From assembly GCA_001817915.1 (NCBI GenBank), contig MHJJ01000014.1, positions 3,695-67,694 on the forward strand: 64,000 nt of DNA, given 5' to 3'. Position 1 is the stretch's first letter. Each line of letters opens with the position of its first letter. The position numbers and the translations under genes were made by a program. This document shows positions 186 through 63,630 of this stretch, one piece after another. The DNA is from Candidatus Harrisonbacteria bacterium RIFCSPLOWO2_01_FULL_44_18. Lineage in GTDB: Bacteria; Patescibacteriota; Minisyncoccia; UBA6257; WO2-44-18. The notes under the pieces were generated by a model that was given only the letters and a program-made list of their open reading frames with translations, was not told where the DNA came from and ran no database searches.

Positions 186-1337
186 TTATTTTTTGATAAT
201 TTCATTGAATAGTTTTAGAGTTTGGCGCGCCGTGTTCGGCCAATTAAATTTTTGAACATTCCGCAAGCCGGCTTCCTGAAGTCTTTTTTTGAGAGCGGGG
301 TTATCTAAAATTTTTTTAACGGCTTCCGTTAATTCTTCAACCCGCCAGGGGTCTATTAAAATAGCCGATTGACCCAAGATTTCCGGAAGGGAAGCGCGAT
401 CGGCCGCGATTACCGGACAGCCACAGGCCTGAGCTTCAAGCGGCGGGAAGCCGAATCCTTCAAAAAAAGAAGGATAGATAAACACCTCAGCTAAATTATA
501 TAGCAAAACTCGATCTTCGCCGGAAACCGGACCAAAAAGCGCGATATCTTTACCGTAAGACGATTTGCCGATTTCGTTGGCGATGTTTTGATAAAGCCAA
601 CCCGGCCGGCCGGCCAAAATAAGTTTTAAATCTTTGAAACGCGGATTGCTTTTTAGGGCGTTAAAAGCGCGAATGATAGCCGGGATATTTTTTCTCGGTT
701 CCAATGTGCCTAAATATAAAATAAAAGGCGAATCTAGCTTGTGTTTGCCGCGAAAATCTTTTAGGCGCCGATCATCAGCCGACATTTTTTTAAATTGATC
801 ATCAACGCCCGAATAGATGACCGAAATTTTTTCTTCGGGTACGGCCAGCAAGTTTACGAGGTCTGATTTTGTAAATTCGGAAACAGCGATTATTTTTGCC
901 GCTTCCTGGGCTTGCTTTTTGTAATTCTGGAGCCAATGCCAAAATTTTTGTTTTTGGGAAAAGAAATACGGATGGCGCAAAAAAGAAAGATCGTGGAAGG
1001 TAATGACGCGGGGCGTTTCCGTCTTGGCCAATATGTTAAAATGCGGGCTAAAAATTAAATCGGCCTCGATAAAACGATCAAGTTTAGGCCAGGAAAGAAA
1101 GCGGCTTGAAACTTCAAAAATTTTATTCGGAATTTTCCAATCGATAATTTTTAGAGATTGGTAATTGGTAATTGGTAATTGGTAATTTAACGGTTGCTTA
1201 CGTAGGCCGCTGTAAAACAAAAAATAGCGATTAGCCGAATCAACGGCCAAAAGCGTTTTTAATAAATTACGGGCGTATTCTTCAATCCCAGAAAGACCCC
1301 CGCGCGTTAATACCCGCGCGTCAAAGATTATTTTCAT
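186..1337 (-). CDS. glycosyltransferase family 1 (GT4-like)
   Basis: 383-aa ORF. C-terminal EGFGFPPLEAQACGCPVIA motif typical of GT1 glycosyltransferases. Carries an in-frame tandem repeat at 1158-1188. Confidence 0.8.
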   Translation of the reverse strand: MKIIFDARVLTRGGLSGIEEYARNLLKTLLAVDSANRYFLFYSGLRKQPLNYQLPITNYQSLKIIDWKIPNKIFEVSSRFLSWPKLDRFIEADLIFSPHFNILAKTETPRVITFHDLSFLRHPYFFSQKQKFWHWLQNYKKQAQEAAKIIAVSEFTKSDLVNLLAVPEEKISVIYSGVDDQFKKMSADDRRLKDFRGKHKLDSPFILYLGTLEPRKNIPAIIRAFNALKSNPRFKDLKLILAGRPGWLYQNIANEIGKSSYGKDIALFGPVSGEDRVLLYNLAEVFIYPSFFEGFGFPPLEAQACGCPVIAADRASLPEILGQSAILIDPWRVEELTEAVKKILDNPALKKRLQEAGLRNVQKFNWPNTARQTLKLFNEIIKK

Positions 1338-5840: not shown

Positions 5841-5971
5841 GATTTTCCGTCAGAGGCGGATTCGCCTTCGGCGGAGGAATACAGAATTTAGGATTTAGGT
5901 ATAGGATTGGATAAATTCTACTTCCCTAAATTCTAAATTCTATATCCTATATTCTATTTTCAAAATCAACT

Positions 5972-11344: not shown

Positions 11345-11345
11345 T

Positions 11346-12129: not shown

Positions 12130-13155
12130 ATGATACTTATTGATTCTCATACCCATATCCAATTTCCGGTTTATGATAATGATCGGGAGGCGGTTATTGA
12201 ACGCGCGAGAAACGCGGGGGTTTACCCCCACACCAAACGAGCATTGGCGTTAGAAGAAAATGATGCTCGTTATGGTGTGGGGGTAAAAATGATTTGCGTC
12301 GGCACTCAAGCATCAACTTCTGAATCGGCAATTAAGCTCGCGGAAAAATATCCAGAGGATGTTTGGGCGACAATCGGCTACCATCCCAATCATGTTGTGC
12401 CAGCGCAACATGCGCAGACTTTGCGGACTGGACGCAGACTTGCGCAGACAAATTGGTATCATGATCAGAAGGAGCAGAAATCGGCAAATCCGCCGCGATT
12501 TAATATTGAAGAACTGCGCAGGCTTGCTCAGCATCCGAAAGTCGTGGCGATCGGGGAGTGCGGTTTGGATTACTACCGACTAGCCGCTAGCGATTTGCCA
12601 CTAGCCACTAGGGTTAAAGAAAAACAGAAAGAAATTTTTTTGCAGCAAGTCGAACTTGCGCAGGAATTAAATAAAGCATTGATGATCCATTGCCGGCCAT
12701 CCAAAGGCACCAACGACGCCTACGAAGATTTGCTGAAGATTTTACAGGAGATTAAATTTTCTCAGAATGTAATTATTCATTTTTATGTTGGTTCTGTTGA
12801 AATGGCACGAAAATTTTTAGATGCCGGATTTTACCCCCACACCAAACGAGCATTATCGGGGGGCGTCAATGGCGCGAATGCTCGTTATGGTGCGGGGGTT
12901 TATTTTACCTTCGGTGGCGTGATTACATTTTCACGCGACTATGACGAAATTATAAAATACATTCCTCTGGATCGAATTCTTCTGGAAACCGACGCGCCCT
13001 ATGTCGCGCCGGAACCGTATCGCGGCCGCCGCAACGAACCGGCATACATCGTGGAAACCGCTAAAAAACTAGCGGAAGTTAAAAATGTAAGCTTTGAAAA
13101 AGTGGCTGAAATAACTACCAAAACTGCTGGACAGATTTTTAAGTTGCCATTATAA
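12130..13155 (+). CDS. tatD: TatD-family metal-dependent DNase with in-frame repeat insertions
   Basis: Begins LIDSHTHI and carries the GECGLDYY and ETDAPY motifs. It is about 80 aa longer than typical TatD because of three in-frame repeat insertions. Confidence 0.8.
   Translation: MILIDSHTHIQFPVYDNDREAVIERARNAGVYPHTKRALALEENDARYGVGVKMICVGTQASTSESAIKLAEKYPEDVWATIGYHPNHVVPAQHAQTLRTGRRLAQTNWYHDQKEQKSANPPRFNIEELRRLAQHPKVVAIGECGLDYYRLAASDLPLATRVKEKQKEIFLQQVELAQELNKALMIHCRPSKGTNDAYEDLLKILQEIKFSQNVIIHFYVGSVEMARKFLDAGFYPHTKRALSGGVNGANARYGAGVYFTFGGVITFSRDYDEIIKYIPLDRILLETDAPYVAPEPYRGRRNEPAYIVETAKKLAEVKNVSFEKVAEITTKTAGQIFKLPL
12221..12287. mobile_element. palindromic miniature element (CCCCACACCAAACGAG family), copy 1, inside tatD in-frame
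   Basis: TIRs tttacccccacaccaaacgagcat / atgctcgttatggtgtgggggtaaa. No stop codon; translated as VYPHTKRALALEENDARYGVGVK. Confidence 0.7.
12829..12906. mobile_element. palindromic miniature element, copy 2, inside tatD in-frame
   Basis: ttttacccccacaccaaacgagcat...atgctcgttatggtgcgggggtttatttt; translated as FYPHTKRALSGGVNGANARYGAGVYF. Confidence 0.7.
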
Positions 13156-14695: not shown

Positions 14696-14703
14696 GATTT
14701 CTT

Positions 14704-14811: not shown

Positions 14812-14832
14812 ATAAAAGCCTATAATTTCTAT

Positions 14833-17385
14833 ATGCTGAAGTATAATTTTCGTAAAATAGAAAAAAAGTGGCAAGCCGTCTGGAAGCGCAATAAGTATAA
14901 GGTCTGGCGCGCCGCGGATTTTTCTAAAAATCAAAACCCAAAAGCTAAAAGCTATGTATTGGATATGTTTCCCTATCCCTCCGGCGAAGGACTGCATGTC
15001 GGCCATGTTGAGGGTTATACCGCTTCGGATATCTACGCGCGTTTTTTAAGAATGAACGGCCGTAATGTTTTGCATCCGATGGGATGGGACGCCTTTGGTT
15101 TACCTGCGGAAAATTACGCGATTAAGACAAAAACTCATCCCAGCTTGGTGGTAAAAAAGAATGTAAGGCGATTTAAAGCCCAATTAGACAGCTTGGGATT
15201 CAGCTACGATTGGCAAAGAGAAATTAATACCACCGACCCCGGATATTATAAATGGACGCAGTGGATTTTTCTGCAGATGTTCAAAAACGGCCTTGCTTAT
15301 GAAGCAGAGATGCCGGTTAATTGGTGTCCCTCTTGTAAAACCGTATTAGCCAATGAAGAGGTGATTGACGGCCATTGCGAACGTTGTGACAGCCTCGCAG
15401 AAAGAAAAAGTTTGAAACAATGGATTTTAAAAATTACCGATTACGCCGAGCGTCTGCTGAAGGATCTAGACGGGTTGGATTGGCCGGAGCGAGTAAAAGA
15501 AATGCAAAGAAATTGGATTGGCCGGTCAGAGGGGGTGATCATTAAGTTTCAAGTTTCAAGTTTAAAGTTTCCAATCGAAGTTTTTACGACTCGGCCGGAT
15601 ACTTTGGCCGGCGCCACTTATCTGGTTTTAGCGCCGGAACATCCGCTTATCAAAGACTTACAGCGCAAAATTAGGAATCCTAACGAGGTGACGCGTTATG
15701 TTGAGCAGGCGAGCCATAAATCAGAGCGCGAGCGACTGGCGGAAGTAAAAGAGAAAACCGGAGTCGAGCTTAAGGGCATTAAAGCCGTTAATCCTTTGAC
15801 CAACGAACAAATTCCGATTTGGGTCGCTGATTATGTTTTGGTCCATTATGGCACGGGCGCGATTATGGCAGTGCCGGCCCATGATCAAAGAGACTTTGAA
15901 TTTGCTCAGAAATTTGAGTTGCCGATAAAGATTGTTATTTGCCCGAATTATCCGGAACCCGTTTGCCCGATTTTAGAAAAAGCTTATGAAGGCGATGGAT
16001 ATTTGGTTGGTTCGGGCGAATTTGACGGCCTGCCTAATAACGAAGCTAAAAAAACGATTCTTGAATCGTTGATAAAAAAAGACTTGGCGAAAAAGACTGT
16101 TAATTACAAATTGCGGGATTGGGTTTTTTCCCGTCAGCGTTATTGGGGCGAGCCGATACCTTTGGTTTTTTGTAAAAATTGTAAAAAACAAGTGGAGAAT
16201 TTTAAATCTCAAAACCAAAATTATTCTTTTGATAAATTTAGTTTGGGAGAATTGTTAAATCCCGGTTGGACGGTCATTCCTGATTCAGAATTACCGGTCA
16301 AGTTGCCCAATGTTAAAAATTATCAGCCAACCGGCAAGGCCGAGTCGCCTTTGGCTGGCATTGAAAAATGGACCAAGACGAGTTGTCCCAGATGCGGCGG
16401 GTTAGCTACGCGAGAAACTAATACTATGCCGCAATGGGCGGGGTCTAATTGGTATTATTTGCGATATTTAGATCCCAAGAATAAAGAAGAATTAGTTGAT
16501 CACGACAAAGAAAAATACTGGATGGGAGTGGACTTATACATCGGTGGCGTAGAGCACGCGGTGTTGCATTTGTTGTACGCCCGCTTTTGGCATAAGTTTT
16601 TGTATGATATCGGCATAGTTTCCACCAAAGAACCTTTTGGCAAATTAATTAATCAAGGTTTAATTTTGGGGCCGGATGGCCAGAAAATGTCAAAATCGCG
16701 CGGCAATGTGGCAAATCCCGACGAAATAGTTTCTAAATTTGGCGCGGATTCTTTGCGGCTTTATGAAATGTTTATGGGGCCGTTGGAGGAGGCAAAACCG
16801 TGGGATTCCCGCGGGATCGTGGGAATGCACCGTTTTTTACAAAGAACGTGGAAGTTATTCACGAAACCGGGAATTGAAAAAAATCCGCGTAAATCTGCTT
16901 CTACCGACGCAGAATCCGCGTCAATCCGCGTAGCGAAGCTGTTACACAAAACTATCAAGAAAGTTACCGAAGATGTCAAAAATTTCCGGTTTAATACCGC
17001 TATCAGCGCGCTGATGATTTTAGTTAACGAAATGGAAAAGAATCCTCAATTACTAATTACTAATTACCAATTACTAATAAAATTGTTGTTTCCTTTCGCG
17101 CCGCATTTAGCTCAAGAACTTTGGCAAAAACTAGGAAATAAGAGTTTATTGGATTACGAGCCTTGGCCGGTCTGGGATGAAAAATTAATCCAAGAAGAAG
17201 AGTTTGAGTTAATTATTCAAATCAACGGCAAAATGCGGGGTAAAATTATGACTCAAAAGGGAATTGTCGAAGAAGACGCGAAAAAACTTGCATTCAGCCA
17301 AAATGTTATTAAGAAATGGATCGGCGGCAAAAAAATCAAAAAAACTATTTTCGTGAAAGATAGGTTGATAAATTTTATTGTTTGA
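14833..17385 (+). CDS. leuS: leucine--tRNA ligase
   Basis: HVGH motif (PYPSGEGLHVGHVEGY) and KMSKS (QKMSKSRGNV). Start set at the ATG at 14833, directly after a TATAAT, so the mRNA may be leaderless. Carries several in-frame repeats. Confidence 0.9.
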   Translation: MLKYNFRKIEKKWQAVWKRNKYKVWRAADFSKNQNPKAKSYVLDMFPYPSGEGLHVGHVEGYTASDIYARFLRMNGRNVLHPMGWDAFGLPAENYAIKTKTHPSLVVKKNVRRFKAQLDSLGFSYDWQREINTTDPGYYKWTQWIFLQMFKNGLAYEAEMPVNWCPSCKTVLANEEVIDGHCERCDSLAERKSLKQWILKITDYAERLLKDLDGLDWPERVKEMQRNWIGRSEGVIIKFQVSSLKFPIEVFTTRPDTLAGATYLVLAPEHPLIKDLQRKIRNPNEVTRYVEQASHKSERERLAEVKEKTGVELKGIKAVNPLTNEQIPIWVADYVLVHYGTGAIMAVPAHDQRDFEFAQKFELPIKIVICPNYPEPVCPILEKAYEGDGYLVGSGEFDGLPNNEAKKTILESLIKKDLAKKTVNYKLRDWVFSRQRYWGEPIPLVFCKNCKKQVENFKSQNQNYSFDKFSLGELLNPGWTVIPDSELPVKLPNVKNYQPTGKAESPLAGIEKWTKTSCPRCGGLATRETNTMPQWAGSNWYYLRYLDPKNKEELVDHDKEKYWMGVDLYIGGVEHAVLHLLYARFWHKFLYDIGIVSTKEPFGKLINQGLILGPDGQKMSKSRGNVANPDEIVSKFGADSLRLYEMFMGPLEEAKPWDSRGIVGMHRFLQRTWKLFTKPGIEKNPRKSASTDAESASIRVAKLLHKTIKKVTEDVKNFRFNTAISALMILVNEMEKNPQLLITNYQLLIKLLFPFAPHLAQELWQKLGNKSLLDYEPWPVWDEKLIQEEEFELIIQINGKMRGKIMTQKGIVEEDAKKLAFSQNVIKKWIGGKKIKKTIFVKDRLINFIV

Positions 17386-24713: not shown

Positions 24714-24759
24714 TAGAGAAATAACCGCGGTTTCAAAAAATTCCCTCGAATGAGGGAAT

Positions 24760-26754: not shown

Positions 26755-29373
26755 ATGATTACCAAAGAAACTTTGCGAAAATCTTTTTGGGCTTTGCCGG
26801 TTCACGAGGCGCTTGACGCGCTTGAAACTACTGCCAGCGGGTTGATGCGGGATGAAGCAGAAGAGCGTCTTAGGGTTTTCGGGAAAAACGTTTTAGCCAA
26901 AAGGATAAGAATAACTAAATTAAAAATTCTTGTCAGGCAGTTCGGAAGCCCGCTGATTTTTCTTTTGTTAATTGCCGGCGGCGTTACTTTGTTTTTGAAG
27001 GATTTTAAGGATGCCGGATTTATTCTTGCCGCCGCTTTAATAAACGCGATTTTGGGATTTTATCAAGAAAGCAAAGCCGAGACGGCGTTGGCGCATTTAA
27101 GAACTTACATCAGAGAACGCAATCGCGTATTTAGAGATAATCACGAGATAGAAGTTGATTCCAGCGAATTAGCGCCGGGAGACGTCATCCATTTATCTCA
27201 AGGGGATCGGATACCCGCGGACTGCCGATTAATTTATGTCAACGATTTTGCCGTTGATCAAGCGATTTTAACCGGCGAATCCCTGCCGGTTTCTAAAGAT
27301 ATCAAGCCCGCCAGTTTTCAGGCAGTCCTCGCGGATCAGAATTCAATGGTCTTTAGCGGCACGGTGGCGGTACAGGGGTTTGCCAATGCCGTTGTTTCCG
27401 CTACCGGCAAATACACCGAATTGGGGAAAATCGCCGCTCTAGTCGCGAGGCCGGAAAAGGAACGCACTCCTCTTCGCGAGGCAATAAATAAATTCAGTAT
27501 TAAGGCCAGCATTATTTTGATCGGATTAACGGCCCTGATTTTTTCGCTCGGCGTTTTGACGGGAAGTTCATTGCTGGATATGTTTTTGATTTCGGTGGCG
27601 ATCGTAGTTTCGGCGATACCGGAAGGATTGCCAATCGCGATGACCGTCATTTTGGCGGTAGGCGTGCAAAGATTGGCGTGGAAAAAAGGAATTGTCCGCA
27701 AATTGCTCGCGGCGGAAACAATGGGCAGCACCTCGGTAATTTTGACTGATAAGACCGGCACCTTGACTGAAGCCAAGATGGAACTTTCGGAAATAAAAGT
27801 TTATAAGGAGGACCGCGCGGAAGAGCGGAAAGAAACGATATTAAAACTCGCCATCCTTAATAGCGACGTGGTGATAGAAAATCCCGGCGATTCGCCTTTT
27901 GACTGGGAAATTATTGGCCGGCCGCTGGAGGTGGCGATTGTCAGATCGGCGGCCAAATTTGATATTTTGGCGCCGGATGTTCGTAAGAAAATGAAAGCCG
28001 TCGATTATCTTCCATTTAGTTCCGTAAATAAATTTTCGGCAAACGTTATTCAGCAAGGTTCGAAATATTTACTTAGCGTGTTCGGCGCGCCGGAAATTTT
28101 ATTAAAATTTTCTAATTTGCCCGATAATTCGCGCCGCCAAATTCATAGAGATGTCGACAAGGTCGCCTATGGCGGCGCGAGAGTTTTAGCAGTCGCGACA
28201 AAAGAATTATCGGGCATTGAAGGAGTTTCGCTTCGCCAGAAAGAAATTTTTAAAGATTTGGATTTTTTGGGAACAATGTCTTTTAGGGACCCGATTCGCA
28301 AAGAAGTCAGAGACGCGGTTAATCGGGTCGCTCAAGCCGGTGTCCGCACTTTAATTGTCACGGGAGATCATCGCGGCACCGCGGAGTTTGTAGCTAAAGA
28401 AGTCGGCATTTCTATTGATGGCGATAGTGTCATTGACGGCGCTGAACTTGACGCGCTGAACGATGAAGATCTTAAAAATAGACTTCCGAATTTAAGGATT
28501 GTTTCGCGGGTAAGTCCGGAAGGAAAATTGAGGATAGTTAAAGCGCTTCAGGGGATAGGGGAGATTGTGGCAATGACCGGCGACGGCGTGAATGACGCCC
28601 CAAGTTTAAAGGAAGCTGATATCGGCGTTAGCATGGGTTCGGGCACCGATGTTGCTAAAGATGTATCGGATTTAGTTTTGCTTGACGATAATTTTGAAAC
28701 CATCGTGGAAGCCGTGGCTGAGGGCCGAAGGATTATACAAAATATCAGAAAAGTAATCGTTTATCTGCTTTCAAATGCTTTGGACGGATTGATTTTAATT
28801 GGCGGGTCCTTGCTTATCGGCTTGAGCTTGCCGTTGAACGCGCTGCAGATTCTTTGGGTTAATTTTTTTACCGATAGTTTTCCGGCAATCGCCTTGGCTT
28901 TTGAAAAAAAGATTGACCATTGGGTTGATCGTCCCGCGCCAATCCATAAAGGATTGCTTGACTCGGAAATGAGATTTTTGATTCAAGTGATCGGAGCGCT
29001 CACGAGTGTTTTGCTTTTGGTTTTATACGTTGGCTTGCTTTATTTGGGTATTGAAGAAAAATTGGTTCACACTTTTATCTTTGCCGCCTTTGGGACATAC
29101 AGTTTGTTTTTGGTTTTCGCGGTTCGAAGTTTGAGACGGAGTATTTTCACTTATAATCCTTTTTCAAACCCCGCGCTTTTGGGAAGCGTGATTTTAGGAT
29201 TGGGATTAATGGCGATCGCGATTTACGTTCCTTTTCTCCAAAAATTATTCGGCACCATGCCCTTGCCGTTAAACTGGCTCTGGGGCATCGTGGGTTTGGG
29301 AATTTTGAATGTCTTCGCGATTGAGTTTGGAAAGTGGGTTTTTAGAAAAAAACAACTAACAACTAACAACTAA
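26755..29373 (+). CDS. cation-transporting P-type ATPase (P2-type, Ca2+/Mg2+-like)
   Basis: DKTGTLT phosphorylation motif, TGDGVNDAPSLK, TGES and about 10 TM helices. The C-terminus and stop codon run into a heptamer tandem repeat. Confidence 0.9.
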   Translation: MITKETLRKSFWALPVHEALDALETTASGLMRDEAEERLRVFGKNVLAKRIRITKLKILVRQFGSPLIFLLLIAGGVTLFLKDFKDAGFILAAALINAILGFYQESKAETALAHLRTYIRERNRVFRDNHEIEVDSSELAPGDVIHLSQGDRIPADCRLIYVNDFAVDQAILTGESLPVSKDIKPASFQAVLADQNSMVFSGTVAVQGFANAVVSATGKYTELGKIAALVARPEKERTPLREAINKFSIKASIILIGLTALIFSLGVLTGSSLLDMFLISVAIVVSAIPEGLPIAMTVILAVGVQRLAWKKGIVRKLLAAETMGSTSVILTDKTGTLTEAKMELSEIKVYKEDRAEERKETILKLAILNSDVVIENPGDSPFDWEIIGRPLEVAIVRSAAKFDILAPDVRKKMKAVDYLPFSSVNKFSANVIQQGSKYLLSVFGAPEILLKFSNLPDNSRRQIHRDVDKVAYGGARVLAVATKELSGIEGVSLRQKEIFKDLDFLGTMSFRDPIRKEVRDAVNRVAQAGVRTLIVTGDHRGTAEFVAKEVGISIDGDSVIDGAELDALNDEDLKNRLPNLRIVSRVSPEGKLRIVKALQGIGEIVAMTGDGVNDAPSLKEADIGVSMGSGTDVAKDVSDLVLLDDNFETIVEAVAEGRRIIQNIRKVIVYLLSNALDGLILIGGSLLIGLSLPLNALQILWVNFFTDSFPAIALAFEKKIDHWVDRPAPIHKGLLDSEMRFLIQVIGALTSVLLLVLYVGLLYLGIEEKLVHTFIFAAFGTYSLFLVFAVRSLRRSIFTYNPFSNPALLGSVILGLGLMAIAIYVPFLQKLFGTMPLPLNWLWGIVGLGILNVFAIEFGKWVFRKKQLTTNN

Positions 29374-29457
29374 CAACTAACAACTAACAACTAACAACTA
29401 ACAACTAACAACTAACAACTAACAACTAACAACTAACAACTAACAACTAACAACTAA
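29351..29457. repeat. tandem heptamer (CAACTAA) x about 15
   Basis: aacaactaacaactaac... perfect copies covering the ATPase stop codon and the 3' end of convergent comF. Confidence 0.9.
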
Positions 29458-32717: not shown

Positions 32718-32832
32718 TCTGTTATCGCGAGGCATTTATGCCGAGCTAGTTACCAGTTACCAATTACTTCGTGGAATCGCCGTGTAATCAGTAACTTGCT
32801 CAACATAAAGGTTTCGCGACACAGTTCAAAGT

Positions 32833-34957: not shown

Positions 34958-35108
34958 TATAATTAACGAAGTAATCGCGAACAACGCGAACCTATGCAAA
35001 ATAATGCTAATAATTTATTCGCGTTATTTCGAATCAAATTAGCATTATTCACGATTACTCCGATTCGTGTTATTTTGAAACAAATTAGCATTATTCGCGA
35101 TTACTCCG
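34958..35108 (+). repeat. 145-bp structured intercistronic element, copy 2 (pilB stop to pilT start)
   Basis: About 95 % identical to copy 1. Confidence 0.85.
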
Positions 35109-36182: not shown

Positions 36183-36331
36183 CGAAGTAATCGCGAACAA
36201 CGCGAACCTATGCAAAATAATGCGAATACTGTTAACGGAGCAATCGCTAATAATGCGAATTTTGGCAAAATAATGCTAATAATTTATTCGCGTTATTTTG
36301 AATCAGATTAGCATTATTAGCGATTACTTCG
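36183..36331 (+). repeat. structured intercistronic element, copy 3 (variant; pilT stop to pilC start)
   Basis: Same 5' block taacgaagtaatcgcgaacaacgcgaacctatgcaaaataatgc and same 3' block aatgctaataatttattcgcgttattttgaatcagattagcattatt. The central segment is diverged. Confidence 0.8.
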
Positions 36332-37540
36332 ATGAAATATAGATACAGCGCCAGAACTAAAGTTGGGGATTTGCAGGTGGGATTTGTCGAGGCCGTTAAT
36401 CGCGACGCCGCGGCCAATATTTTAATTAGCCACGATCTTTTTGTTTTGAGTTTGGAATCGGCGGAGGCGTCAAGGTGGTTTGGCTGGATTTTGGGTTTTT
36501 TCCGACGAGTAAAAAAGATTGACCTGATGATTTTTACCCGCCAATTCGCCACCATGCTTGAAGCAAAAATTCCCTTAGGCGATTCCCTGAAAAGTCTTTA
36601 CGCTCAAACTAAGAATGTCGCTTTGAAAGAAACAATTTTTGAAATTTCTTCGGATATTGACGCCGGCCTTTCGCTTTCTCAATCTTTAAGCCGCCACGCC
36701 AATATCTTTTCGGAATTTTACATTAATTTGGTGCAGGCTTCGGAAGTGACCGGCCGCATTGAAGAGGCGGTTGGTTTTTTGGCAGACTATCTAGACAAGG
36801 AAATCTCTTTATTGGGACGCGTCCGCAGCGCCCTTATCTATCCGGTTTTTGTTATCGGCTTATTCATAGTCGTGGTTGGCGTTATGGTCGGCACGGTCTT
36901 CCCTCAGCTTTTGCCGATTTTTGAGGAGTCGGCGGCGGAGCTGCCTTTAATCACCAGCCTGCTTTTAAATTCCGGAAATTTCATCGCTGATTGGTGGTTG
37001 GCGATTCTGGTTATTCTGGCAATTCTTATCACTGTTTTGGTTGATTATTTCCGCACCGAAGAGGGCAGAATTATTCAGGATCAGTTGCTTATTAACACAC
37101 CGGTTGTGGGAGGCTTATTTAGAAAAATGTATGTCGCGAGATTCGCGGAGGCGGTCAGCGTTTTAATAAAAGGAGGAATTCCGATTGCTCAAGCAATGGA
37201 AATAAGCAGTCATACTGTTGGAAGTTTTGTTTATCGCGAGGCATTGCATGAGGTGGCGGAAGCTATCCGCGGGGGCGAGTTGCTGTCGCAAGCCTTGTCG
37301 CGCGACACGAATTATTTTCCGCCGATCGTCAGCCAAATGGTGGCGGTAGGCGAACGCACCGGCAAGCTGGACGAGATGTTTGGACGCGTAGCCAAATTTT
37401 ATACGCGCGAGGTTGATGCCACAGTGGGTAATTTAGTAGAATTAGTTCAGCCGACTCTTATGGTGGTTATCGGCTTAGGAGTGGGATTGCTTTTTGCGGC
37501 TGTATTGTTACCGATTTACAATTTGGCAGCAACATTTTAG
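36332..37540 (+). CDS. pilC: type IV pilus platform protein PilC (GspF family)
   Basis: Two GspF repeats and 3 TM segments; C-terminal end LLPIYNLAATF. Confidence 0.9.
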   Translation: MKYRYSARTKVGDLQVGFVEAVNRDAAANILISHDLFVLSLESAEASRWFGWILGFFRRVKKIDLMIFTRQFATMLEAKIPLGDSLKSLYAQTKNVALKETIFEISSDIDAGLSLSQSLSRHANIFSEFYINLVQASEVTGRIEEAVGFLADYLDKEISLLGRVRSALIYPVFVIGLFIVVVGVMVGTVFPQLLPIFEESAAELPLITSLLLNSGNFIADWWLAILVILAILITVLVDYFRTEEGRIIQDQLLINTPVVGGLFRKMYVARFAEAVSVLIKGGIPIAQAMEISSHTVGSFVYREALHEVAEAIRGGELLSQALSRDTNYFPPIVSQMVAVGERTGKLDEMFGRVAKFYTREVDATVGNLVELVQPTLMVVIGLGVGLLFAAVLLPIYNLAATF

Positions 37541-44467: not shown

Positions 44468-46531
<2,064 letters not shown>

Positions 46532-47386: not shown

Positions 47387-47447
47387 AAACCCCCACACCA
47401 AATGAGTTTCAAGATTCTATAAAAACTCGTTATGGTGTGGGGGTAAA
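47387..47447. mobile_element. palindromic miniature element (CCCCACACCAAA family), copy 3, intergenic
   Basis: aaacccccacaccaaatgag...ctcgttatggtgtgggggtaaa, followed by a terminator-like hairpin cccgccttcgagcggg. Confidence 0.7.
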
Positions 47448-48664: not shown

Positions 48665-48681
48665 CGTCAATCCCGCGCCTA

Positions 48682-48752
48682 GGAGAGCAGGATTCGAACT
48701 AGCGTCAAATTTAGAAGAGAGAATTTGAGCCAAGTTCGAATCCTGCTCTCCT
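48682..48752. mobile_element. short copy of the tRNA-end-like MITE (GGAGAGCAGGATTCGAAC TIRs)
   Basis: ggagagcaggattcgaactagcgtcaaatttagaagagagaatttgagccaagttcgaatcctgctctcc. Confidence 0.6.
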
Positions 48753-48756
48753 ATTA

Positions 48757-49196: not shown

Positions 49197-50672
49197 ATGC
49201 ACTTACACGATTTAACAATCAAAAAGTTCCACGAAGGTTTACTAAAAAAAGATTTTTCCGCGCTGGAAATAACGAAGGAATTTTTTGATTACATTGAAGT
49301 TAAGGATAAAGAAATTGGGGCTTATCTTTCCTTGGCCAAAGACGAAGCATTTTTGCGGGCCGAAAAAGCAGATTTAAAAATTGCCAAAGACGAACCGATG
49401 GACGCGCTGAGCGGGGTGCCGCTCGCGATCAAAGACAATATTTTGATTGATGGCCAGCCGGCTACTGCCGCATCTAAAATTTTGGAAAATTATAAGGCGG
49501 TTTATGACGCAACGGTAATTAAGAAATTAAAAGCCGTTGGAGCGGTTTTCCTTGGCAAAACTAATATGGACGAGTTTGCCATGGGTTCTTCGACAGAAAA
49601 TTCCGGATTTAAATTAACTAAGAATCCTTATGATTTGGAACGAGTTCCGGGAGGGTCTTCCGGCGGTTCGGCAGCCGCGGTTGCCGCCCATATGGCAGTG
49701 GCCGCCTTTGGTTCTGATACCGGCGGTTCAATTCGACAGCCAGCCAGTTTCTGCGGTGTTGTCGGATTAAAGCCGACTTATGGAGCGGTTTCTCGACATG
49801 GATTGATCGCGATGGCTTCAAGCTTGGATCAGATCGGCCCTTTTACGAAAACCGTTGAAGACGCGGCGATTTTATTTAAAACTATTGCCGGAAAAGATCA
49901 GTTTGATTCTACCAGCGTTGAAACAAATTATAATGATGAATTATTAAATCCAAAGCTTGAAGATGTTAAAAAACTGACCGTCGGTCTGCCGGAAGAATAT
50001 TTTATAAGCGGCGTTGAGCCAGGCGTCATTAAAGCAGTTGAATCGGCAATCAATCAATTCAAAAGTTTGGGGATTAATTTTAAAAAAATCAGTTTGCCGC
50101 ACACCAAATACGCCTTATCTTGCTACTATATCATTATGCCCGCGGAAGTTAGCGCCAATTTAGCTCGTTTTGATGGTATAAGATATTCCAAAATCCAAAA
50201 TCCAAAATCCAAAATCCAAAACTTGCTGGAATTGTATAAAAGACAGCGCAGCGAAGGATTCGGGCCGGAAGTGAAGCGAAGAATTATTCTGGGAACTTTT
50301 GTTTTATCATCCGGATATTACGATGCTTACTATGCCAAAGCGCAGAAGGCGCGCGCGCTGATCAAAAAAGATTTTGATGAAGCATTCAAAGAAGTAGATG
50401 TTATTCTTACTCCGGTCGCGCCAACGCCGGCATTCAAATTCGGAGAAAAAACCAGCGACCCATTGGCGATGTACCTTTCTGACATATTTACCATTCCAGT
50501 CAATCTTGCTGGCTTACCCGCTATTTCGATACCAGTGAAACAAGCGACAAGCGACATGTCGCGCGTCACAAGTCATAAGCCACTGCCTATCGGTTTTCAA
50601 TTGATTGGCAAACATTGGCGAGAGGCCGATATTTTGGGGATGGGGATGTTTTATGAAAGATTACAAATTTAA
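49197..50672 (+). CDS. gatA: Glu-tRNA(Gln)/Asp-tRNA(Asn) amidotransferase subunit A
   Basis: Amidase signature GGSSGGSAAAVAA, Ser-cisSer-Lys triad context. In-frame TCCAAAA tandem repeat at 50187-50221. Confidence 0.9.
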   Translation: MHLHDLTIKKFHEGLLKKDFSALEITKEFFDYIEVKDKEIGAYLSLAKDEAFLRAEKADLKIAKDEPMDALSGVPLAIKDNILIDGQPATAASKILENYKAVYDATVIKKLKAVGAVFLGKTNMDEFAMGSSTENSGFKLTKNPYDLERVPGGSSGGSAAAVAAHMAVAAFGSDTGGSIRQPASFCGVVGLKPTYGAVSRHGLIAMASSLDQIGPFTKTVEDAAILFKTIAGKDQFDSTSVETNYNDELLNPKLEDVKKLTVGLPEEYFISGVEPGVIKAVESAINQFKSLGINFKKISLPHTKYALSCYYIIMPAEVSANLARFDGIRYSKIQNPKSKIQNLLELYKRQRSEGFGPEVKRRIILGTFVLSSGYYDAYYAKAQKARALIKKDFDEAFKEVDVILTPVAPTPAFKFGEKTSDPLAMYLSDIFTIPVNLAGLPAISIPVKQATSDMSRVTSHKPLPIGFQLIGKHWREADILGMGMFYERLQI

Positions 50673-54831: not shown

Positions 54832-55977
54832 ATGGATATTCAAGATTTACGACATTCTTTTCATCACGAGATCAAAGGCGTTAAAGACGCAAAAACCCTT
54901 GAGGGGTTTAGAATAAAGTATTTAGGGCGCAAAGACGGCGAGCTTACTAAAATTTTGCGTTCACTGAAAGATTTGCCGTTGGCAAAAAAGAGAAAAATTG
55001 GTCCTGCCGCCAATAATTTGCGAAAGGAAATCGAAGTCGCTTTAGAAGCAAAACTTAAGGAGCTACAAACTACAAACTACAAACTACAAACTAGAATTGA
55101 TGTTACTATGCCCGGCAAAAAGATTCCGGTCGGGCATCTTCACCCGCTGACTTTGATGGAAAATAGAATTCGGGAAATTTTCCGCGGTTTGAATTTTTCC
55201 GTTGTTGAAGGCCCGGAGATAGAAACCGAACATTATAATTTTGACGCTTTAAATATTCCGGCTAATCATCCAGCTAGGGATATGTGGGACACCTTTTGGT
55301 TAAAACTTTCTGCCAACGGCGGAAAGTTCGCCCAACCAGATTTGCGAAGCAAATCTGGTTTAGGGCTAAAAACGCAGACTAACGCAGAAAAAATTCCGCG
55401 TGAGTCCGCGTCAAGTCCGCGTGTGTCTGCGCTGTTAAGAACTCACACCAGTCCGATGCAGATTCGTTATATGGAAACGCATCGGCCGCCGTTTCAGATA
55501 ATTGTGCCCGGACGAGTATTTCGTTATGAGGCTACTGACGCTTCCCACGAAATCAATTTTCATCAAGTTGAGGGTTTGATGGTCGGAGAAAATATCAATC
55601 TGGCTAATTTTAAATATATTATTGAGGAATTTTTCCGCCAGCTTTTCGGCGCCGGCACGCATATCCGTTTTCGCCCAAGTTATTTTCCGTTTGTCGAACC
55701 CGGTTTGGAAATAGACATTCTCCTTGACAGGAGCGCAGAAGAACGCGGACTATACGCAGACCAACGTGGAAAAAGTCTGCGTGAATCCGCGTGGTTGGAG
55801 GTGATGGGCGCGGGAATGGTGCATCCCAATGTTTTTCGAGCCGTTGGTTATGATTCCAGAAAGGTCCAGGGTTTTGCTTTCGGTTTGGGCATAGAAAGGC
55901 TGGCGATGATTAAATATAAGATCCCCGATATACGATTGTTCTACTCGGGAGACCTGCGTTTCATTAACCAGTTTTGA
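54832..55977 (+). CDS. pheS: phenylalanine--tRNA ligase alpha subunit
   Basis: Class II motifs RPSYFPFVEPG and GAGMVHPNV. Contains in-frame repeats at 55063-55094, 55394-55434 and 55743-55794. Confidence 0.9.
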   Translation: MDIQDLRHSFHHEIKGVKDAKTLEGFRIKYLGRKDGELTKILRSLKDLPLAKKRKIGPAANNLRKEIEVALEAKLKELQTTNYKLQTRIDVTMPGKKIPVGHLHPLTLMENRIREIFRGLNFSVVEGPEIETEHYNFDALNIPANHPARDMWDTFWLKLSANGGKFAQPDLRSKSGLGLKTQTNAEKIPRESASSPRVSALLRTHTSPMQIRYMETHRPPFQIIVPGRVFRYEATDASHEINFHQVEGLMVGENINLANFKYIIEEFFRQLFGAGTHIRFRPSYFPFVEPGLEIDILLDRSAEERGLYADQRGKSLRESAWLEVMGAGMVHPNVFRAVGYDSRKVQGFAFGLGIERLAMIKYKIPDIRLFYSGDLRFINQF

Positions 55978-56084
55978 TGAATGCCACGATGAATTATGAG
56001 GCACGAATTATGAATTATGCAGCATGAATTTTAGCCGAAGGCCATCCTTGATTCATAATTCCTAATTCATAATTCAACAAAACA

Positions 56085-58055
56085 ATGAAATTTTCCTACA
56101 CATTATTAAAAAAACTGGCGCCCGTTATAAAAAGCTCCGAGCAACTGATGGAAGCCTTAGCTTTTCATGCTTTTGAAGTTGAAAAAGTTGATGGCGATGT
56201 TATAGACATCGTCATTCCTGCTAATCGTTATTCTGATGCCGCCTCGCATTATGGGATGGCCGTGGTAGTGTCGGCAATTTTAGGCAAAAAAACGCCAGAA
56301 TTAAAACTGCCGGCGCTAAAGTCTAAAGCGCAAAGTTTAAACTTCAAAGTTGGCATTGATTCCAAAAAGCTTTGTCCGCGTTACAGCGGACTTTATGCCG
56401 AGATTAACAAGATTGGTAAATCTCCCGAGTGGATGCAAAAAATTTTAATTTCCTGCGGTTTGCGTCCAATTAACAACATCGTTGACGTGATGAATTATGT
56501 GATGCTGGAAATAGGACAACCATTACACGCTTTCGATTTTGACGAAATAGAAAGCGTGAAATCCAAAATCCAAAATCCAAAATCCAAAAATATTGTCGTT
56601 AGATTAGCAAAAGAAGGCGAAAAAATTGAAACAATTGATGGTGGCAAATATGACCTCGATGTAAATGATTTAGTAATAGCGGATGAAAAAGGGGCATTAG
56701 CGATTGCCGGGGTAAAAGGCGGAAAGCGCGCCGAGGTTTCTTTAAAAACTAAACGTATTATTGTTGAGGCGGCGAATTTCGATTCGGTTAGCGTTTACAA
56801 AACTTCTCGGCGGCTCAATTTATTCACTGATGCTTCGGCGCGCTTTTCTCATGGACTAGCACCCGTGTTAGTTGAAAAGGGGATTAAGAGAGCGGCTCAG
56901 CTTTTGAAAGAAGTTTGCGGCGCCAGATTGGGCGATTGGCTCGATGTGAACTATGTGAAGCCGAGTAAAACGATTATCAAGTTTGACGTGGAAAGATTTA
57001 ATAAGTTGACCGGACTTAGTTTAAGCGAAAAAGCGTGTTTGGAATATCTTAAAAAATTAGGATTTCAAGCAAGGGGCAAATTTATTGAGCCGCCGGCTGA
57101 ACGGACCGACATTTTGATTTTCGAGGATTTAGCCGAGGAAATTGTTAATCTTTATGGGTATGACCGGTTGCTTTCGGTTGTCCCGCGCGCGCTCTTGAGC
57201 CCTTCTGGAGCGGAAGATCAAATAGTTCTTAAAGATAAAATCAGAAGCATTCTAACCGGCTTTGGCTTGAGTGAAGTTTATAATTATTCTTTCATCGGAG
57301 AGCCTGATCCGAATCTACAAAATAAATTTTCATTGGTGGAGCTGGTAAATCCAATTGCCGATGATAAGAAATACCTGCGGCCCAGTTTATTTCCTCACTT
57401 GACTAGAAATATCGAAGAGAATTTTCGGTTTTACGATGAAGTAAGGATTTTTGAAATCGGTCGCGTTTTTGCGAAGGCAAGCGGCAAGAACGGTATAGCA
57501 AGCGGCATTAATGAGCAATTGAGTTTGGGGATCGCATTGGGGCTTAAAAAAGGCGCGCCATTTTTGGAGTTGAAAGGAATTGTTGAACAAATGCTCGGAC
57601 AAGCGGGCTTAGTTGATTATTTTACAAAAGAAGACGGCGAAGGTCGTTTACGGCTTGAATCCGATCATCGCACGCTCGGGTATTTAATTGCCAAAGACAA
57701 TAAAGCCCTTGCGGAAATTAATCTTGATGAATTGCTTCAATTGGTGGTCGGCGAAAAAGAATATAGGCCATTGCCGAAATATCCATCGGCGACGCGCGAT
57801 CTTTCATTTATGGTTGACGCTGAAGCGAGAGTAGCCGCGATTCAAAATATTATTGAAAATACCAGCCATTTACTCGATGACGCCGACTTATTGGATTGGT
57901 ACGAAGACCCGAAACTTGGCCCGAATAGAAAAAGTCTTACTTTTCGATTAGTTTTCCAAGCCGAAGATCGAACTTTAACCGATGAGGAAGTCGATCAAGA
58001 GTTAGGCAAAATTGTAGCCAGTTTGAAGGAGAAGTTTGATGTAGAATTAAGATAA
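56085..58055 (+). CDS. pheT: phenylalanine--tRNA ligase beta subunit (short form)
   Basis: B3/4 and B5 domain blocks and a C-terminal FDSA-like domain. Follows pheS. In-frame AAATCCA repeat at 56559-56590. Confidence 0.85.
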   Translation: MKFSYTLLKKLAPVIKSSEQLMEALAFHAFEVEKVDGDVIDIVIPANRYSDAASHYGMAVVVSAILGKKTPELKLPALKSKAQSLNFKVGIDSKKLCPRYSGLYAEINKIGKSPEWMQKILISCGLRPINNIVDVMNYVMLEIGQPLHAFDFDEIESVKSKIQNPKSKNIVVRLAKEGEKIETIDGGKYDLDVNDLVIADEKGALAIAGVKGGKRAEVSLKTKRIIVEAANFDSVSVYKTSRRLNLFTDASARFSHGLAPVLVEKGIKRAAQLLKEVCGARLGDWLDVNYVKPSKTIIKFDVERFNKLTGLSLSEKACLEYLKKLGFQARGKFIEPPAERTDILIFEDLAEEIVNLYGYDRLLSVVPRALLSPSGAEDQIVLKDKIRSILTGFGLSEVYNYSFIGEPDPNLQNKFSLVELVNPIADDKKYLRPSLFPHLTRNIEENFRFYDEVRIFEIGRVFAKASGKNGIASGINEQLSLGIALGLKKGAPFLELKGIVEQMLGQAGLVDYFTKEDGEGRLRLESDHRTLGYLIAKDNKALAEINLDELLQLVVGEKEYRPLPKYPSATRDLSFMVDAEARVAAIQNIIENTSHLLDDADLLDWYEDPKLGPNRKSLTFRLVFQAEDRTLTDEEVDQELGKIVASLKEKFDVELR

Positions 58056-63553: not shown

Positions 63554-63630
63554 GAACGGAGAGGTTAGATGCGACAGATGGGGGTTGGGGGTTGACAATT
63601 CATCAAAAATTTACTAAAATATAAAATAAT

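What the first reader, a model, noticed from the sequence alone, without database searches (positions are those of the whole stretch)
50187..50221. Identical microsatellite-like arrays in unrelated genes, and a heptamer array spanning a stop codon
The same array is translated identically in two unrelated genes: gatA 50187-50221 and pheT 56559-56590 both read TCCAAAA x4-5, giving KIQNPKSKIQN. Other in-frame arrays:
- TAATTGG / CCAATTA in the glycosyltransferase (1158-1188) and leuS (17050-17077); a related non-coding copy lies at 32745-32768.
- AGTTTCA x3 in leuS (15544-15572).
- CAAACTA x4 in pheS (55063-55094).
- CAACTAA x15 (29351-29457) supplies the last residues and the stop codon of the P-type ATPase and abuts the convergent comF.

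These are candidate contingency or phase-variable tracts, or hitch-hiking mini-repeats.
Basis: seen in the sequence. Interest (0 to 1): 0.55.

Follow-up and report, generated by a model that had tools for sequence, protein, structure and literature searches.

The report
Heptamer repeat arrays inside essential genes
This uncultured groundwater bacterium (Candidatus Harrisonbacteria) carries many short runs of 7-base repeats, several of them in frame inside essential genes; they are real and fixed in length, so they are not on/off switches, and related species carry different 7-base arrays at the same spots.

Summary
The window, from a Candidatus Harrisonbacteria (Parcubacteria/CPR) genome, holds 5 perfect period-7 arrays of at least 3 copies (0.0002 expected) and about 14 imperfect ones. 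Eleven lie in frame in genes, including gatA, pheS, pheT, leuS and ligA. The identical peptides in gatA and pheT follow automatically from the same unit on the coding strand, because a 7-nt array reads all three frames every 21 nt.

The contingency-locus reading is not supported for the genic arrays. Fourteen assemblies show no indel in any of them, the 90% protein clusters hold no length variants, and the genes are essential. Only the 15-copy CAACTAA array between the ATPase and comF varies (4, 13, 15, 17 copies). It has stops in all six frames, so both proteins stay unchanged.

Most genic arrays replace sequence without changing protein length. Related Parcubacteria carry different heptamer units at the same codons although silent sites are saturated. 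Deviant units sit exactly where a perfect array would create a stop.

Best explanation: STRR-like heptanucleotide simple-sequence repeats, homogenised by strand misalignment and filtered by selection. This is a new variant of a known kind. Why some units recur at unrelated loci is unexplained.

The parts
50187..50221 (+). TCCAAAA x5 perfect array in gatA, encoding SKIQNPKSKIQN in the variable loop after RFDGIRY.
   Evidence: The loop has the same 23-aa length as in close relatives. It is predicted as coil with pLDDT below 50.
56559..56589 (+). AAATCCA x4.4 perfect array in pheT, the same unit as in gatA, encoding KSKIQNPKSK.
   Evidence: It is a net +11 aa insertion after HAFD relative to T. 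thermophilus PheRS-beta 1b70_B and most Parcubacteria pheT.
55063..55093 (+). CTACAAA x4.4 perfect array in pheS, encoding LQTTNYKLQT at the end of the N-terminal segment, just before DVTMPG.
   Evidence: There is no net insertion relative to 1b70_A. The same unit occurs in ligA of locus L002.
17048..17078 (+). AATTACT x4.4 array in leuS, encoding QLLITNYQLLIK. Its one AATTACC unit removes an in-frame TAA.
   Evidence: It lies in a loop plus helix 742-752 of the model, at high confidence. Orthologous in-register arrays are ATTGGAA/ATTGGTA in L098 and ATTGGTC in L099.
15544..15571 (+). AAGTTTC x4 array (one mismatch) in leuS, encoding KFQVSSLKF.
   Evidence: No length change relative to 1h3n_A. 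It forms a beta-hairpin in the model. Relatives carry KFQIxNxKFQI-type periodic peptides at the same site.
14920..14950 (+). Degenerate NNNAAAA period-7 tract in the leuS N-terminus, encoding SKNQNPKAKS.
   Evidence: (family D3).
1157..1187 (-). AATTACC x4.4 perfect array on the coding strand of a GT4 glycosyltransferase gene, encoding NYQLPITNYQ.
46277..46306 (+). AGCGACA x4.3 array in ligA, in the linker before the BRCT domain, encoding [10 protein letters not shown].
   Evidence: L001 has AGTATCA x4.4 at the same 10 codons. L002 and L102 have the same length with no array.
46074..46100 (+). Degenerate GTAAAAT x3.9 array in ligA. L001 has a perfect GTATCAA x4.1 array at the corresponding site.
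50540..50576 (+). ACAAGCG x2.4 (the same unit family as ligA 46277) followed by a GCGACA/TGTCGC palindrome. It forms a +10 aa insertion (KQATSDMSRVTSHK) in a second gatA loop.
   Evidence: (D9). Predicted as coil with pLDDT below 50. Other lineages carry arrays at the same site (P0091, P0002; L096).
29351..29457 (.). AACAACT (=CAACTAA) x15.3 perfect array. It has stops in all six frames, encodes the last residues and stop of the P-type ATPase, supplies the stop of the convergent comF-like gene, and is the only length-variable array.
32748..32767 (.). Intergenic AGTTACC x2.9 tract related to the leuS and glycosyltransferase unit.
   Evidence: (D14).
12579..12611 (+). Degenerate ACTAGCC array in a TatD-family gene. 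One of its mismatches falls in the would-be in-frame TAG.
5886..5961 (.). Intergenic inverted pair of heptamer tracts (ATTTAGG... / CCTAAAT...) that forms a long hairpin.
   Evidence: z-score -6.5.
55989..56076 (.). Intergenic inverted pair ATGAATT... / AATTCAT... between pheS and pheT, flanking a GCC-GAAG-GC hairpin.
   Evidence: z-score -2.7.

Best explanation
These are genuine heptanucleotide simple-sequence repeats (STRR/LSSR-like), a trait of this Parcubacteria lineage. They are not switches and not mobile elements.

Shown:
- Period 7 is the dominant tandem-repeat period.
- Arrays of about 4-5 units (28-35 nt) sit in frame in essential genes and, proportionally more often, between genes.
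- Because 7 and 3 share no factor, every 21 nt of array is read in all three frames. Any array of a given unit therefore encodes the same cyclic heptapeptide whatever its phase.
- Genic arrays are invariant in length.
- Most occupy the same number of codons as the non-repetitive sequence in relatives.
- The same codons carry arrays with different units in other genera.
- Deviant units coincide with would-be stop codons.

Inferred:
- The arrays are created and kept homogeneous by out-of-register (7-nt) strand misalignment during replication or repair. In essential genes this must act mainly through length-preserving templated conversion between neighbouring units, because a change of one unit is lethal.
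- Purifying selection leaves arrays only where a 7-residue periodic peptide is tolerated, in disordered loops and linkers but also in a helix and a beta-hairpin. It also blocks homogenisation where that would make a stop.
- The long CAACTAA array lies outside this constraint, because its stops in all six frames make any copy number harmless to both genes. It therefore expands and contracts freely by ordinary slippage.
For: Enrichment:
- 5 perfect period-7 arrays against 0.0002 expected, and none for neighbouring periods.
- 32 period-7 arrays in 283 kb of CPR loci, against 24 in 1140 kb of non-CPR loci, where periods 9, 12 and 15 dominate.
- 34 perfect arrays per Mb in CPR loci against 2.6 per Mb in non-CPR loci.

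Reality and fixity:
- 14 assemblies are 99.5-100% identical with no indel in any genic array.
- No length variants in the 90% protein clusters.
- The long array has 4, 4, 13, 13, 15 and 17 copies with identical flanks and intact 872-aa and 237-aa products.

Length neutrality:
- gatA loop, 23 aa as in relatives.
- ligA linker, 10 codons.
- leuS sites and pheS against PDB homologues.

Turnover at orthologous sites:
- gatA loop: TCCAAAA, CTCAAAT, GGAATCA and ACAAGCG in four genomes.
- leuS site 2: AATTACT, ATTGGAA/ATTGGTA and ATTGGTC in the same register. Four-fold degenerate sites of the same genes are only 35-47% identical.

Selection:
- Stop avoidance falls exactly at mismatched units.
- 8 of 19 arrays lie in the 12% of sequence that is non-coding.

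Structure:
- The gatA segments are low-confidence coil.
- The leuS segments are a confident hairpin and helix.

Precedent:
- Heptanucleotide repeats are reported as the commonest class among 5-11 nt repeats in prokaryotes, attributed to polymerase slippage (Mrazek 2007 as summarised in PMC4679880).
- Genome-wide single-unit heptamer families with a 4-unit preference are described in Xanthomonas and Nostoc (PMC4692102).
Against: - The misalignment and conversion mechanism is inferred, not observed. No reads or mutation-accumulation data were available.
- Simple slippage predicts net insertions, yet most genic arrays are length-neutral. A length-preserving variant therefore has to be assumed.
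- Local origin does not obviously explain why the same unit recurs at unrelated loci and genomes. In 30 CPR arrays there are 13 identical-unit pairs, against about 0.7 expected from 7-mer frequencies.
- A codon-usage-weighted model makes AAAATCC-type units likely, but not AAGCGAC (rank 559 of 1608) or AAACTAC (rank 762).
- Many of the assemblies come from one aquifer, and some may re-use the same reads. They are independent assemblies, not all independent populations.
- The copy-number differences in the long array could partly be short-read assembly effects, especially the 4-copy form.
Confidence: 0.62

Rival explanations
1. Contingency or phase-variable loci. Slippage changes the copy number and switches or modulates the genes that carry or flank the arrays.
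For: - The 15-copy array does vary: 4, 13, 15 and 17 copies.
- 7-bp repeats are known to modulate expression of H. influenzae HMW adhesins (PMC8262952, listed).
Against: - The genic arrays are invariant in 14 assemblies and in the protein clusters.
- They sit in gatA, pheS, pheT, leuS and ligA, essential genes present once each in this window, where a frameshift is lethal rather than a switch.
- The variable array has stops in all six frames, so both flanking proteins are identical at every copy number.
- None of the array-bearing genes confirmed here (gatA, pheS, pheT, leuS, ligA, TatD, a Mur-family ligase, a GT4 glycosyltransferase) is a typical surface-antigen or restriction-modification gene.
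Confidence: 0.05
2. Arrays are written or spread by a trans-acting, sequence-specific process: a small mobile element, ectopic conversion between dispersed arrays, or an enzyme that copies a 7-nt template. This would explain why the same units appear at unrelated loci.
For: Identical units occur at non-orthologous sites:
- TCCAAAA in gatA and pheT. The same KIQNPKSKIQN peptide occurs in leuS of another genome (P0297) and a near-identical one in pheT of P0192.
- AGCGACA in window ligA, in window gatA site 2, in the L001 gatA loop and at L096 9909, with a looser 15-nt-period tract in L097 ligA.
- CAAACTA in window pheS and L002 ligA.
- GTATCAA at two sites of L001 ligA.

Overall there are 13 identical pairs against about 0.7 expected. 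Array size is narrow, 28-35 nt. Replacement is length-neutral.
Against: - There are no terminal inverted repeats, target-site duplications or conserved flanks.
- No candidate enzyme was identified in the window.
- Orthologous arrays keep their position and register while their units change by 1-3 nt, which looks like in-place evolution.
- Composition and codon usage alone raise the chance of shared units about 30-fold.
- Within the window, pairs of units differing by one mismatch are no more frequent than chance: 4 observed against 4.3 expected.
Confidence: 0.15
3. The arrays are selected for a function of their own: protein-binding iterons, RNA structure, translational pausing, or useful heptad peptides.
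For: - Arrays persist at the same codons across genera.
- Intergenic inverted pairs form stable hairpins.
- A 7-aa period matches the spacing of about two helical turns, and a two-strand hairpin.
Against: - Unit sequence is not conserved between orthologous arrays.
- The closest relative (L102) and L002 lack the arrays at the same sites and have the same length.
- The host genes are functionally unrelated.
- Arrays are depleted from coding sequence relative to non-coding sequence.
Confidence: 0.08
4. Assembly or sequencing artefact.
For: Several contigs end inside the long array, which is typical of repeats in short-read assemblies.
Against: - Identical genic arrays appear in 14 assemblies from JGI and ENA samples.
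- Homologous arrays appear in unrelated projects and species.
- The ORFs stay intact.
Confidence: 0.02

Closest known systems
Heptanucleotide long simple-sequence repeats (LSSR) of prokaryotes and cyanobacterial STRR (Mrazek et al. 2007 and Mazel et al. 1990, as summarised in PMC4679880 and PMC4692102)
   Same: Tandem 7-nt units at many dispersed loci per genome. Period 7 is preferred over neighbouring periods. Particular units recur within a genome. The attributed cause is polymerase slippage.
   Different: Those repeats are described mainly in large genomes (Burkholderia, Xanthomonas, cyanobacteria) and mostly between genes. Here they occur in a CPR genome, a lineage typically with small genomes. 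Several unit families coexist, and many arrays lie in frame inside core housekeeping genes.
GGGAATC (Xanthomonas) and GGGGAYT (Nostoc) heptamer repeat families (PMC4692102)
   Same: About 100-190 dispersed arrays per genome, a strong preference for about 4 units, some overlapping stop codons, and under-representation in coding sequence.
   Different: Those units are G-rich and form quadruplexes, and the 4-unit preference was ascribed to G4 formation. The units here are A-rich and contain no G-runs, with one possible exception, the short TGGGGGT x2.3 tract at 63579-63594.
TAACTGA direct repeats of marine Beggiatoaceae (PMC4679880)
   Same: A heptamer with stops in all three forward frames, often overlapping the stop codon of the upstream gene. 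Rare in-ORF copies in the reverse orientation encode a 7-aa periodic peptide. This parallels the CAACTAA array at 29351.
   Different: A single unit is used genome-wide. It is concentrated just upstream of start codons and was proposed to be regulatory. It is not found inside conserved domains of essential genes.
Perfect tandem repeats of Borg elements (PMC9879509)
   Same: Near-perfect, A-enriched on the coding strand, present in genes and between genes, with hotspots where homologous proteins carry different repeats at the same place. They evolve fast relative to their flanks.
   Different: All Borg genic repeats have unit lengths divisible by three, add new disordered regions and vary in copy number within populations. 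Here the unit is 7 nt, the frame is kept only through the 21-nt super-period, arrays are short and fixed, and they mostly replace existing sequence, including folded elements.
Phase-variable contingency loci (for example tetranucleotide repeats in Haemophilus or Neisseria, and the 7-bp HMW promoter repeats, PMC8262952)
   Same: Tandem short units whose length is not a multiple of three, associated with genes.
   Different: No copy-number variation is seen in the genic arrays. The host genes are essential housekeeping genes, not surface or restriction-modification genes.
Rickettsia palindromic elements, RPE (recalled from memory; not checked in a paper here)
   Same: Small repeats tolerated in frame within conserved proteins at permissive sites. 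The same window also has GC-rich elements of this style (see Noticed in passing).
   Different: RPEs are 100-150 nt palindromic mobile elements that always add length. The heptamer arrays are tandem, about 30 nt and often length-neutral.

Membership tests
Heptanucleotide simple-sequence repeat (LSSR/STRR-like) | Head-to-tail copies of a 7-nt unit, longer than chance allows. | tested here: met
   5 perfect arrays of at least 3 copies against 0.0002 expected, and 19 TRF period-7 hits.
Heptanucleotide simple-sequence repeat (LSSR/STRR-like) | Many dispersed loci per genome, with period 7 over-represented relative to other periods. | tested here: met
   Period 7 is the commonest period in 283 kb of CPR loci (32 arrays). 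It is about 5-fold denser there than in 1140 kb of non-CPR loci.
Heptanucleotide simple-sequence repeat (LSSR/STRR-like) | Copy number mutable by slippage, rising with array length. | tested here: inconclusive
   The 15-copy array differs among assemblies (4-17 copies). Arrays of 4-5 copies never differ. Read-level data were not available, and an assembly contribution cannot be excluded.
Phase-variable contingency locus | Copy-number polymorphism within or between closely related populations. | tested here: not met
   No indels in genic arrays across 14 assemblies and no length variants in the 90% clusters. The feature is met only by the intergenic 29351 array.
Phase-variable contingency locus | A copy-number change alters expression or the reading frame of a dispensable, usually surface or restriction-modification, gene. 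| tested here: not met
   The hosts are gatA, pheS, pheT, leuS and ligA (Pfam and PDB matches). The variable array leaves both flanking products unchanged.
MITE/RPE-type mobile mini-element | Terminal inverted repeats, target-site duplication or conserved ends shared by copies. | tested here: not met
   Flanks of the 19 arrays share nothing. The repeat families found by the repeat finder match only through the heptamers themselves (D3, D9, D14, I7).
MITE/RPE-type mobile mini-element | Presence/absence polymorphism with a length change at the insertion site. | tested here: not met
   At the gatA loop, the ligA linker, both leuS sites and pheS, the array occupies about the same number of codons as non-repeat sequence in relatives. 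Only pheT (+11 aa) and gatA site 2 (+10 aa) add length.
Borg-like amino-acid tandem repeats | Genic repeat units divisible by three that create new disordered regions. | tested here: not met
   The unit is 7 nt. The leuS arrays encode a confident hairpin and helix. Only the gatA segments are disordered.

The most novel reading that the evidence does not exclude
Parcubacteria may possess fixed 'array loci' inside essential genes. At these loci about 30 nt of coding sequence would be repeatedly overwritten with a new heptamer array, with no change in length. The process would have an intrinsic 7-nt register and a limited repertoire of units shared between unrelated loci and genomes (for example AGCGACA and TCCAAAA). 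That would imply a dedicated templated or enzyme-specific mechanism, rather than ordinary slippage followed by selection. Candidates are an unusual replicative or repair polymerase or primase property, or a trans-acting template.
Probability: 0.15. Interest if true: 0.8.

Novelty: new variant of a known kind. Interest (0 to 1): 0.5.

Why it matters
- It shows that repeats whose unit is not a multiple of three can live stably inside essential, highly conserved enzymes. They even encode folded elements, because a 7-nt array is a 21-nt (7-residue) repeat at the protein level.
- It warns annotators and evolutionary biologists that identical peptides in unrelated CPR proteins, and apparently conserved periodic motifs such as xLxIxNWxLxIK in LeuRS, can be by-products of DNA repeat dynamics rather than functional motifs or homology.
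- It gives a natural system for measuring concerted evolution without length change. The arrays are homogenised much faster than silent sites diverge, and selection visibly blocks homogenisation where it would create a stop.
- If the heptamer preference reflects a property of the CPR replication or repair machinery, it offers a handle on DNA metabolism in organisms that mostly cannot be cultured.
- No paper describing this in CPR was found in the searchable library.

Tried and rejected
- Two scans of metagenome contigs, with the gatA array flanks and then with the left flank alone, aimed to find copy-number alleles. The first found nothing. The second found only an unrelated gatA without an array, so that collection does not hold this organism.
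- Copy-number alleles of genic arrays were sought through exact-protein look-ups. A look-up by gatA cannot reveal gatA length variants. This was compensated by reading the neighbouring genes in the same loci and the 90% protein clusters. None were found.
- A common sequence pattern among units (AA-N-NNN-C) was considered by eye and dropped, because canonical rotation and A-richness could produce it.
- A three-unit slippage cycle (loss or gain of 21 nt) was considered as the homogenising route. No relatives differing by exactly 7 aa were seen at the leuS sites. Gain of 3 units from a 1.4-unit remnant is mechanistically implausible, and no 7.4-unit genic arrays were seen. It was not adopted.
- Rfam and tRNA scans of the window gave only 9 tRNAs and nothing overlapping the arrays.
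- The gatA AlphaFold model is only moderate (mean pLDDT 70, with low confidence even in the conserved core). Its 'disordered loop' call for the array is therefore weak support, used only alongside the PDB alignment.
- The Mrazek 2007 paper could not be read. It is cited only as summarised in PMC4679880.
Full report
**Source and observation**

The gatA product is 100% identical to OGY63109.1/OGY65186.1 of a Candidatus Harrisonbacteria bacterium (Parcubacteria, CPR) from the Rifle aquifer data set. Perfect arrays of at least three copies:

| Period | Observed | Expected |
|---|---|---|
| 7 | 5 | 0.0002 (analytic); none in 100 Markov simulations |
| 6 | 1 | 0.0035 |
| 5, 8-15 | 0 | at most 0.054 |

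Tandem Repeats Finder gives 19 period-7 hits in all.
- ligA, two sites
- a second gatA site
- TatD
- a Mur-family ligase
- a degenerate tract in the leuS N-terminus
- several intergenic tracts

Two small corrections apply. The leuS array at 17048 is AATTACT with one AATTACC unit, so it is similar but not identical to the glycosyltransferase array. The pheT peptide is the gatA peptide in another phase.

**Why the translations are identical**

Seven and three share no factor, so 21 nt of a heptamer array passes through all three reading frames. Any array of a given unit on the coding strand therefore encodes the same cyclic heptapeptide regardless of phase: KIQNPKS for TCCAAAA. The identical translation in two unrelated genes follows from the shared unit. 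The real question is why the unit is shared.

**Not an artefact, and not phase-variable inside genes**

Exact-protein look-ups returned 14 other assemblies of this organism from JGI and ENA samples.
- Over window 39197-60672, seven loci are 99.8-100% identical with no gaps.
- Over 16755-39359, seven more show no indel in any genic array.
- The 90%-identity protein clusters of gatA, pheT and leuS contain no in-frame length variants.

The host genes are gatA, pheS, pheT, leuS and ligA (Pfam and PDB matches). They are essential, and each is present once in this window. In such genes a change of one unit is a lethal frameshift rather than a switch.

The exception is the CAACTAA array at 29351-29457. 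With identical flanks it has 15 copies here and 17, 13, 13, 4 and 4 copies elsewhere, and two contigs end inside it. Its unit has TAA on one strand and TAG on the other, so all six frames are closed. The ATPase always ends ...KKQLTTNN*, and the comF-like gene always stops in the last unit. Both products keep their length (872 and 237 aa) at every copy number. The variation is therefore real or at least plausible, although the 4-copy form could be an assembly collapse. Either way it is silent at the protein level.

**Where the arrays sit in the proteins**

| Array | Encoded peptide | Length effect | Structural context |
|---|---|---|---|
| pheT 56559 | KSKIQNPKSK | +11 aa insertion after HAFD | B3_4 domain |
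| gatA 50540 (site 2) | KQATSDMSRVTSHK | +10 aa | coil, pLDDT below 50 |
| gatA 50187 (loop 1) | SKIQNPKSKIQN | same 23-aa loop as close relatives; +3 aa vs Aquifex | coil, pLDDT below 50 |
| ligA 46277 | [10 protein letters not shown] | same 10 codons as L001, L002 and L102 | linker before BRCT |
| pheS 55063 | LQTTNYKLQT | no net gain | end of the N-terminal segment before DVTMPG |
| leuS 15544 | KFQVSSLKF | none | confident beta-hairpin, strands 231-241 and 247-252 |
| leuS 17048 | QLLITNYQLLIK | none | loop plus helix 742-752 |

Most genic arrays therefore replace existing codons one for one. The gatA model is only moderate (mean pLDDT 70), so its coil calls are weak support. The leuS model is better (mean pLDDT 85.6), with block means of about 86-92 at both arrays. 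A 7-residue repeat suits two similar strands, or about two helical turns. This probably explains why arrays are tolerated in these folded elements.

**Selection is visible**

Every perfect genic array has a unit that is stop-free in tandem. Every genic array whose consensus unit would give an in-frame stop carries a mismatch exactly in that codon. In leuS 17048, the single deviant base in 31 nt turns TAA into CAA. Arrays are also depleted from genes: 8 of 19 lie in the 12% of the window that is non-coding.

**A lineage-wide phenomenon with turnover at fixed sites**

In 283 kb of CPR loci, period 7 is the commonest tandem period (32 arrays). In 1140 kb of non-CPR loci, periods 9, 12 and 15 dominate (perfect arrays). 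Homologues of gatA, pheT and leuS from other Parcubacteria often carry 7-aa periodic peptides at the same sites.

DNA confirms this:
- The gatA loop holds TCCAAAA here, CTCAAAT x5.3 (perfect) in L096, GGAATCA/GGAATTA in L097 and ACAAGCG in L001. All have the same loop length.
- The ligA linker holds AGCGACA here and AGTATCA in L001.
- leuS site 2 holds AATTACT here, alternating ATTGGAA/ATTGGTA in L098 and perfect ATTGGTC x4.9 in L099. All three start after the same Pro codon and end at the same ATT AAA.

These leuS genes are only 66-68% identical in DNA, and 35-47% identical at four-fold degenerate sites. A neutral 30-nt tract would have lost its periodicity long ago at that divergence. The arrays must therefore be homogenised, or regenerated, far faster than the species diverge, and without changing length. 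The closest available relative (L102, 80% identical GatA) has non-repetitive sequence of the same length at both the gatA and ligA sites. The direction of change, gain or decay, cannot be read from these data.

**Mechanism**

The anatomy, fixity, length neutrality, turnover and stop avoidance are shown. That the arrays arise and are kept uniform by out-of-register pairing of neighbouring 7-nt units during replication or repair is inferred. In essential genes the events that survive must preserve length. Two such routes are transient misalignment that copies a few bases from the adjacent unit and then realigns, and a conversion tract with both ends inside the array. Net slippage is allowed only where it is harmless, as in the long intergenic array.

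The preference for 7 nt is a known but unexplained property of prokaryotic simple-sequence repeats. It has been ascribed to the polymerase footprint (Mrazek 2007 as summarised in PMC4679880).

**What remains unexplained**

Identical units recur at unrelated loci.
- In the window there are 3 identical pairs against 0.24 expected (p about 0.005).
- In 30 CPR arrays there are 13 pairs against about 0.7 expected.
- The KIQNPKSKIQN peptide also occurs in LeuRS of another genome, and a near-identical one occurs in PheT of a third.

A codon-usage-weighted, stop-free model raises the chance of a match about 30-fold. It ranks AAAATCC, AAATTGG and AAATTTC among the likeliest units, but not AAGCGAC or AAACTAC, and both of those recur across genomes. 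A trans-acting or sequence-specific process therefore cannot be excluded. Against it, no flanking signature of mobility was found.

**Comparison with known systems**

The closest matches are:
- the heptanucleotide LSSR/STRR class;
- the dispersed heptamer families of Xanthomonas and Nostoc, which have a 4-unit preference, are under-represented in coding sequence and sometimes overlap stop codons (PMC4692102);
- the Beggiatoaceae TAACTGA repeats, which have all-frame stops at gene ends (PMC4679880).

Borg tandem repeats share perfection, A-richness and hotspots, but their genic units are all multiples of three and they add disordered regions (PMC9879509).

The features that appear new are the CPR host, the coexistence of several unit families, the in-frame residence in core enzymes including folded elements, and the length-neutral turnover at orthologous codons. 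Searches of the paper library for such repeats in CPR or Parcubacteria found nothing.

**Verdict**

The arrays are not an artefact and the genic arrays are not contingency loci; only the intergenic array is length-variable.
- Novelty: new variant of a known kind.
- Interest: moderate.

Noticed in passing
window 7027-7063, 12423-12448, 55395-55431, 55745-55770; also leuS around 16900-16950: A GC-rich element (GCGGACTGGACGCAGACTCGCGCGGA-like, with a period-10 sub-structure) is inserted in frame in several genes: ORF 5972-7420, TatD, pheS twice, and leuS. It encodes motifs such as PRKSAS, RESASSPRVSA and ADQRGKSLRESA. The leuS copy lies in a disordered loop (pLDDT below 50, residues 683-689). Relatives carry the same motif in the gatA loops (P0114, L097). 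It resembles Rickettsia-palindromic-element-style in-frame insertions.
   Followed up: partly
window 12266-12287, 12881-12902, 47426-47447: A 22-nt repeat (CTCGTTATGGTGTGGGGGTAAA) occurs twice inside TatD and once upstream of metK. In TatD it is part of two similar in-frame insertions, YPHTKRAL...ARYGVGV. TatD has about 85 residues more than its Pfam profile length.
   Followed up: no
window 5838-5975 and 55975-56090: Intergenic heptamer tracts occur as inverted pairs (ATTTAGG/CCTAAAT and ATGAATT/AATTCAT) around GC-rich GAAG-loop hairpins. They fold into long stem-loops (z-scores -6.5 and -2.7). They may be extended terminators, one of them between pheS and pheT.
   Followed up: partly
window 31468-31615, 34964-35111, 36233-36380: Three copies of a 148-nt intergenic repeat (98% and 72% identical to the first), each with an internal 46-53-nt tandem duplication. 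They lie upstream of the type IV pilus / T2SS genes (T2SSE ATPases and T2SSF) and may be a shared regulatory region.
   Followed up: no
window 24658-24716 and 48679-48737 (also 24439-24473, 48722-48753): A 59-nt inverted repeat pair, 97% complementary and 24 kb apart, contains a tRNA T-arm-like GGTTCGAATCC motif. The copies are not called as tRNAs. They may be tRNA-derived repeats or attachment-site remnants.
   Followed up: no
window 60320-63553: gyrB encodes a 1077-aa product with an Intein_splicing Pfam hit, so it is an intein-containing GyrB.
   Followed up: no
window 7396-7422, 11344-11370, 14697-14723, 14792-14818: A palindromic 27-nt family (ATCTATTGnTTyCGGGAAnCAATAGAT) lies at or near gene ends and looks like terminator hairpins. 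A separate conserved promoter-like 37-mer (TTGACA...TATAAT-like) occurs at 2958, 13981 and 22188.
   Followed up: no
L098 2981-3017 and L099 269-295; L018 5639 and L057 1354, 2636, 5448: Other Parcubacteria loci also share heptamer units across non-orthologous sites and genomes: AAAGCTC in L098 and L099, and AAAATTG in L018 and three sites of L057. Unit recurrence is therefore not peculiar to this genome.
   Followed up: partly
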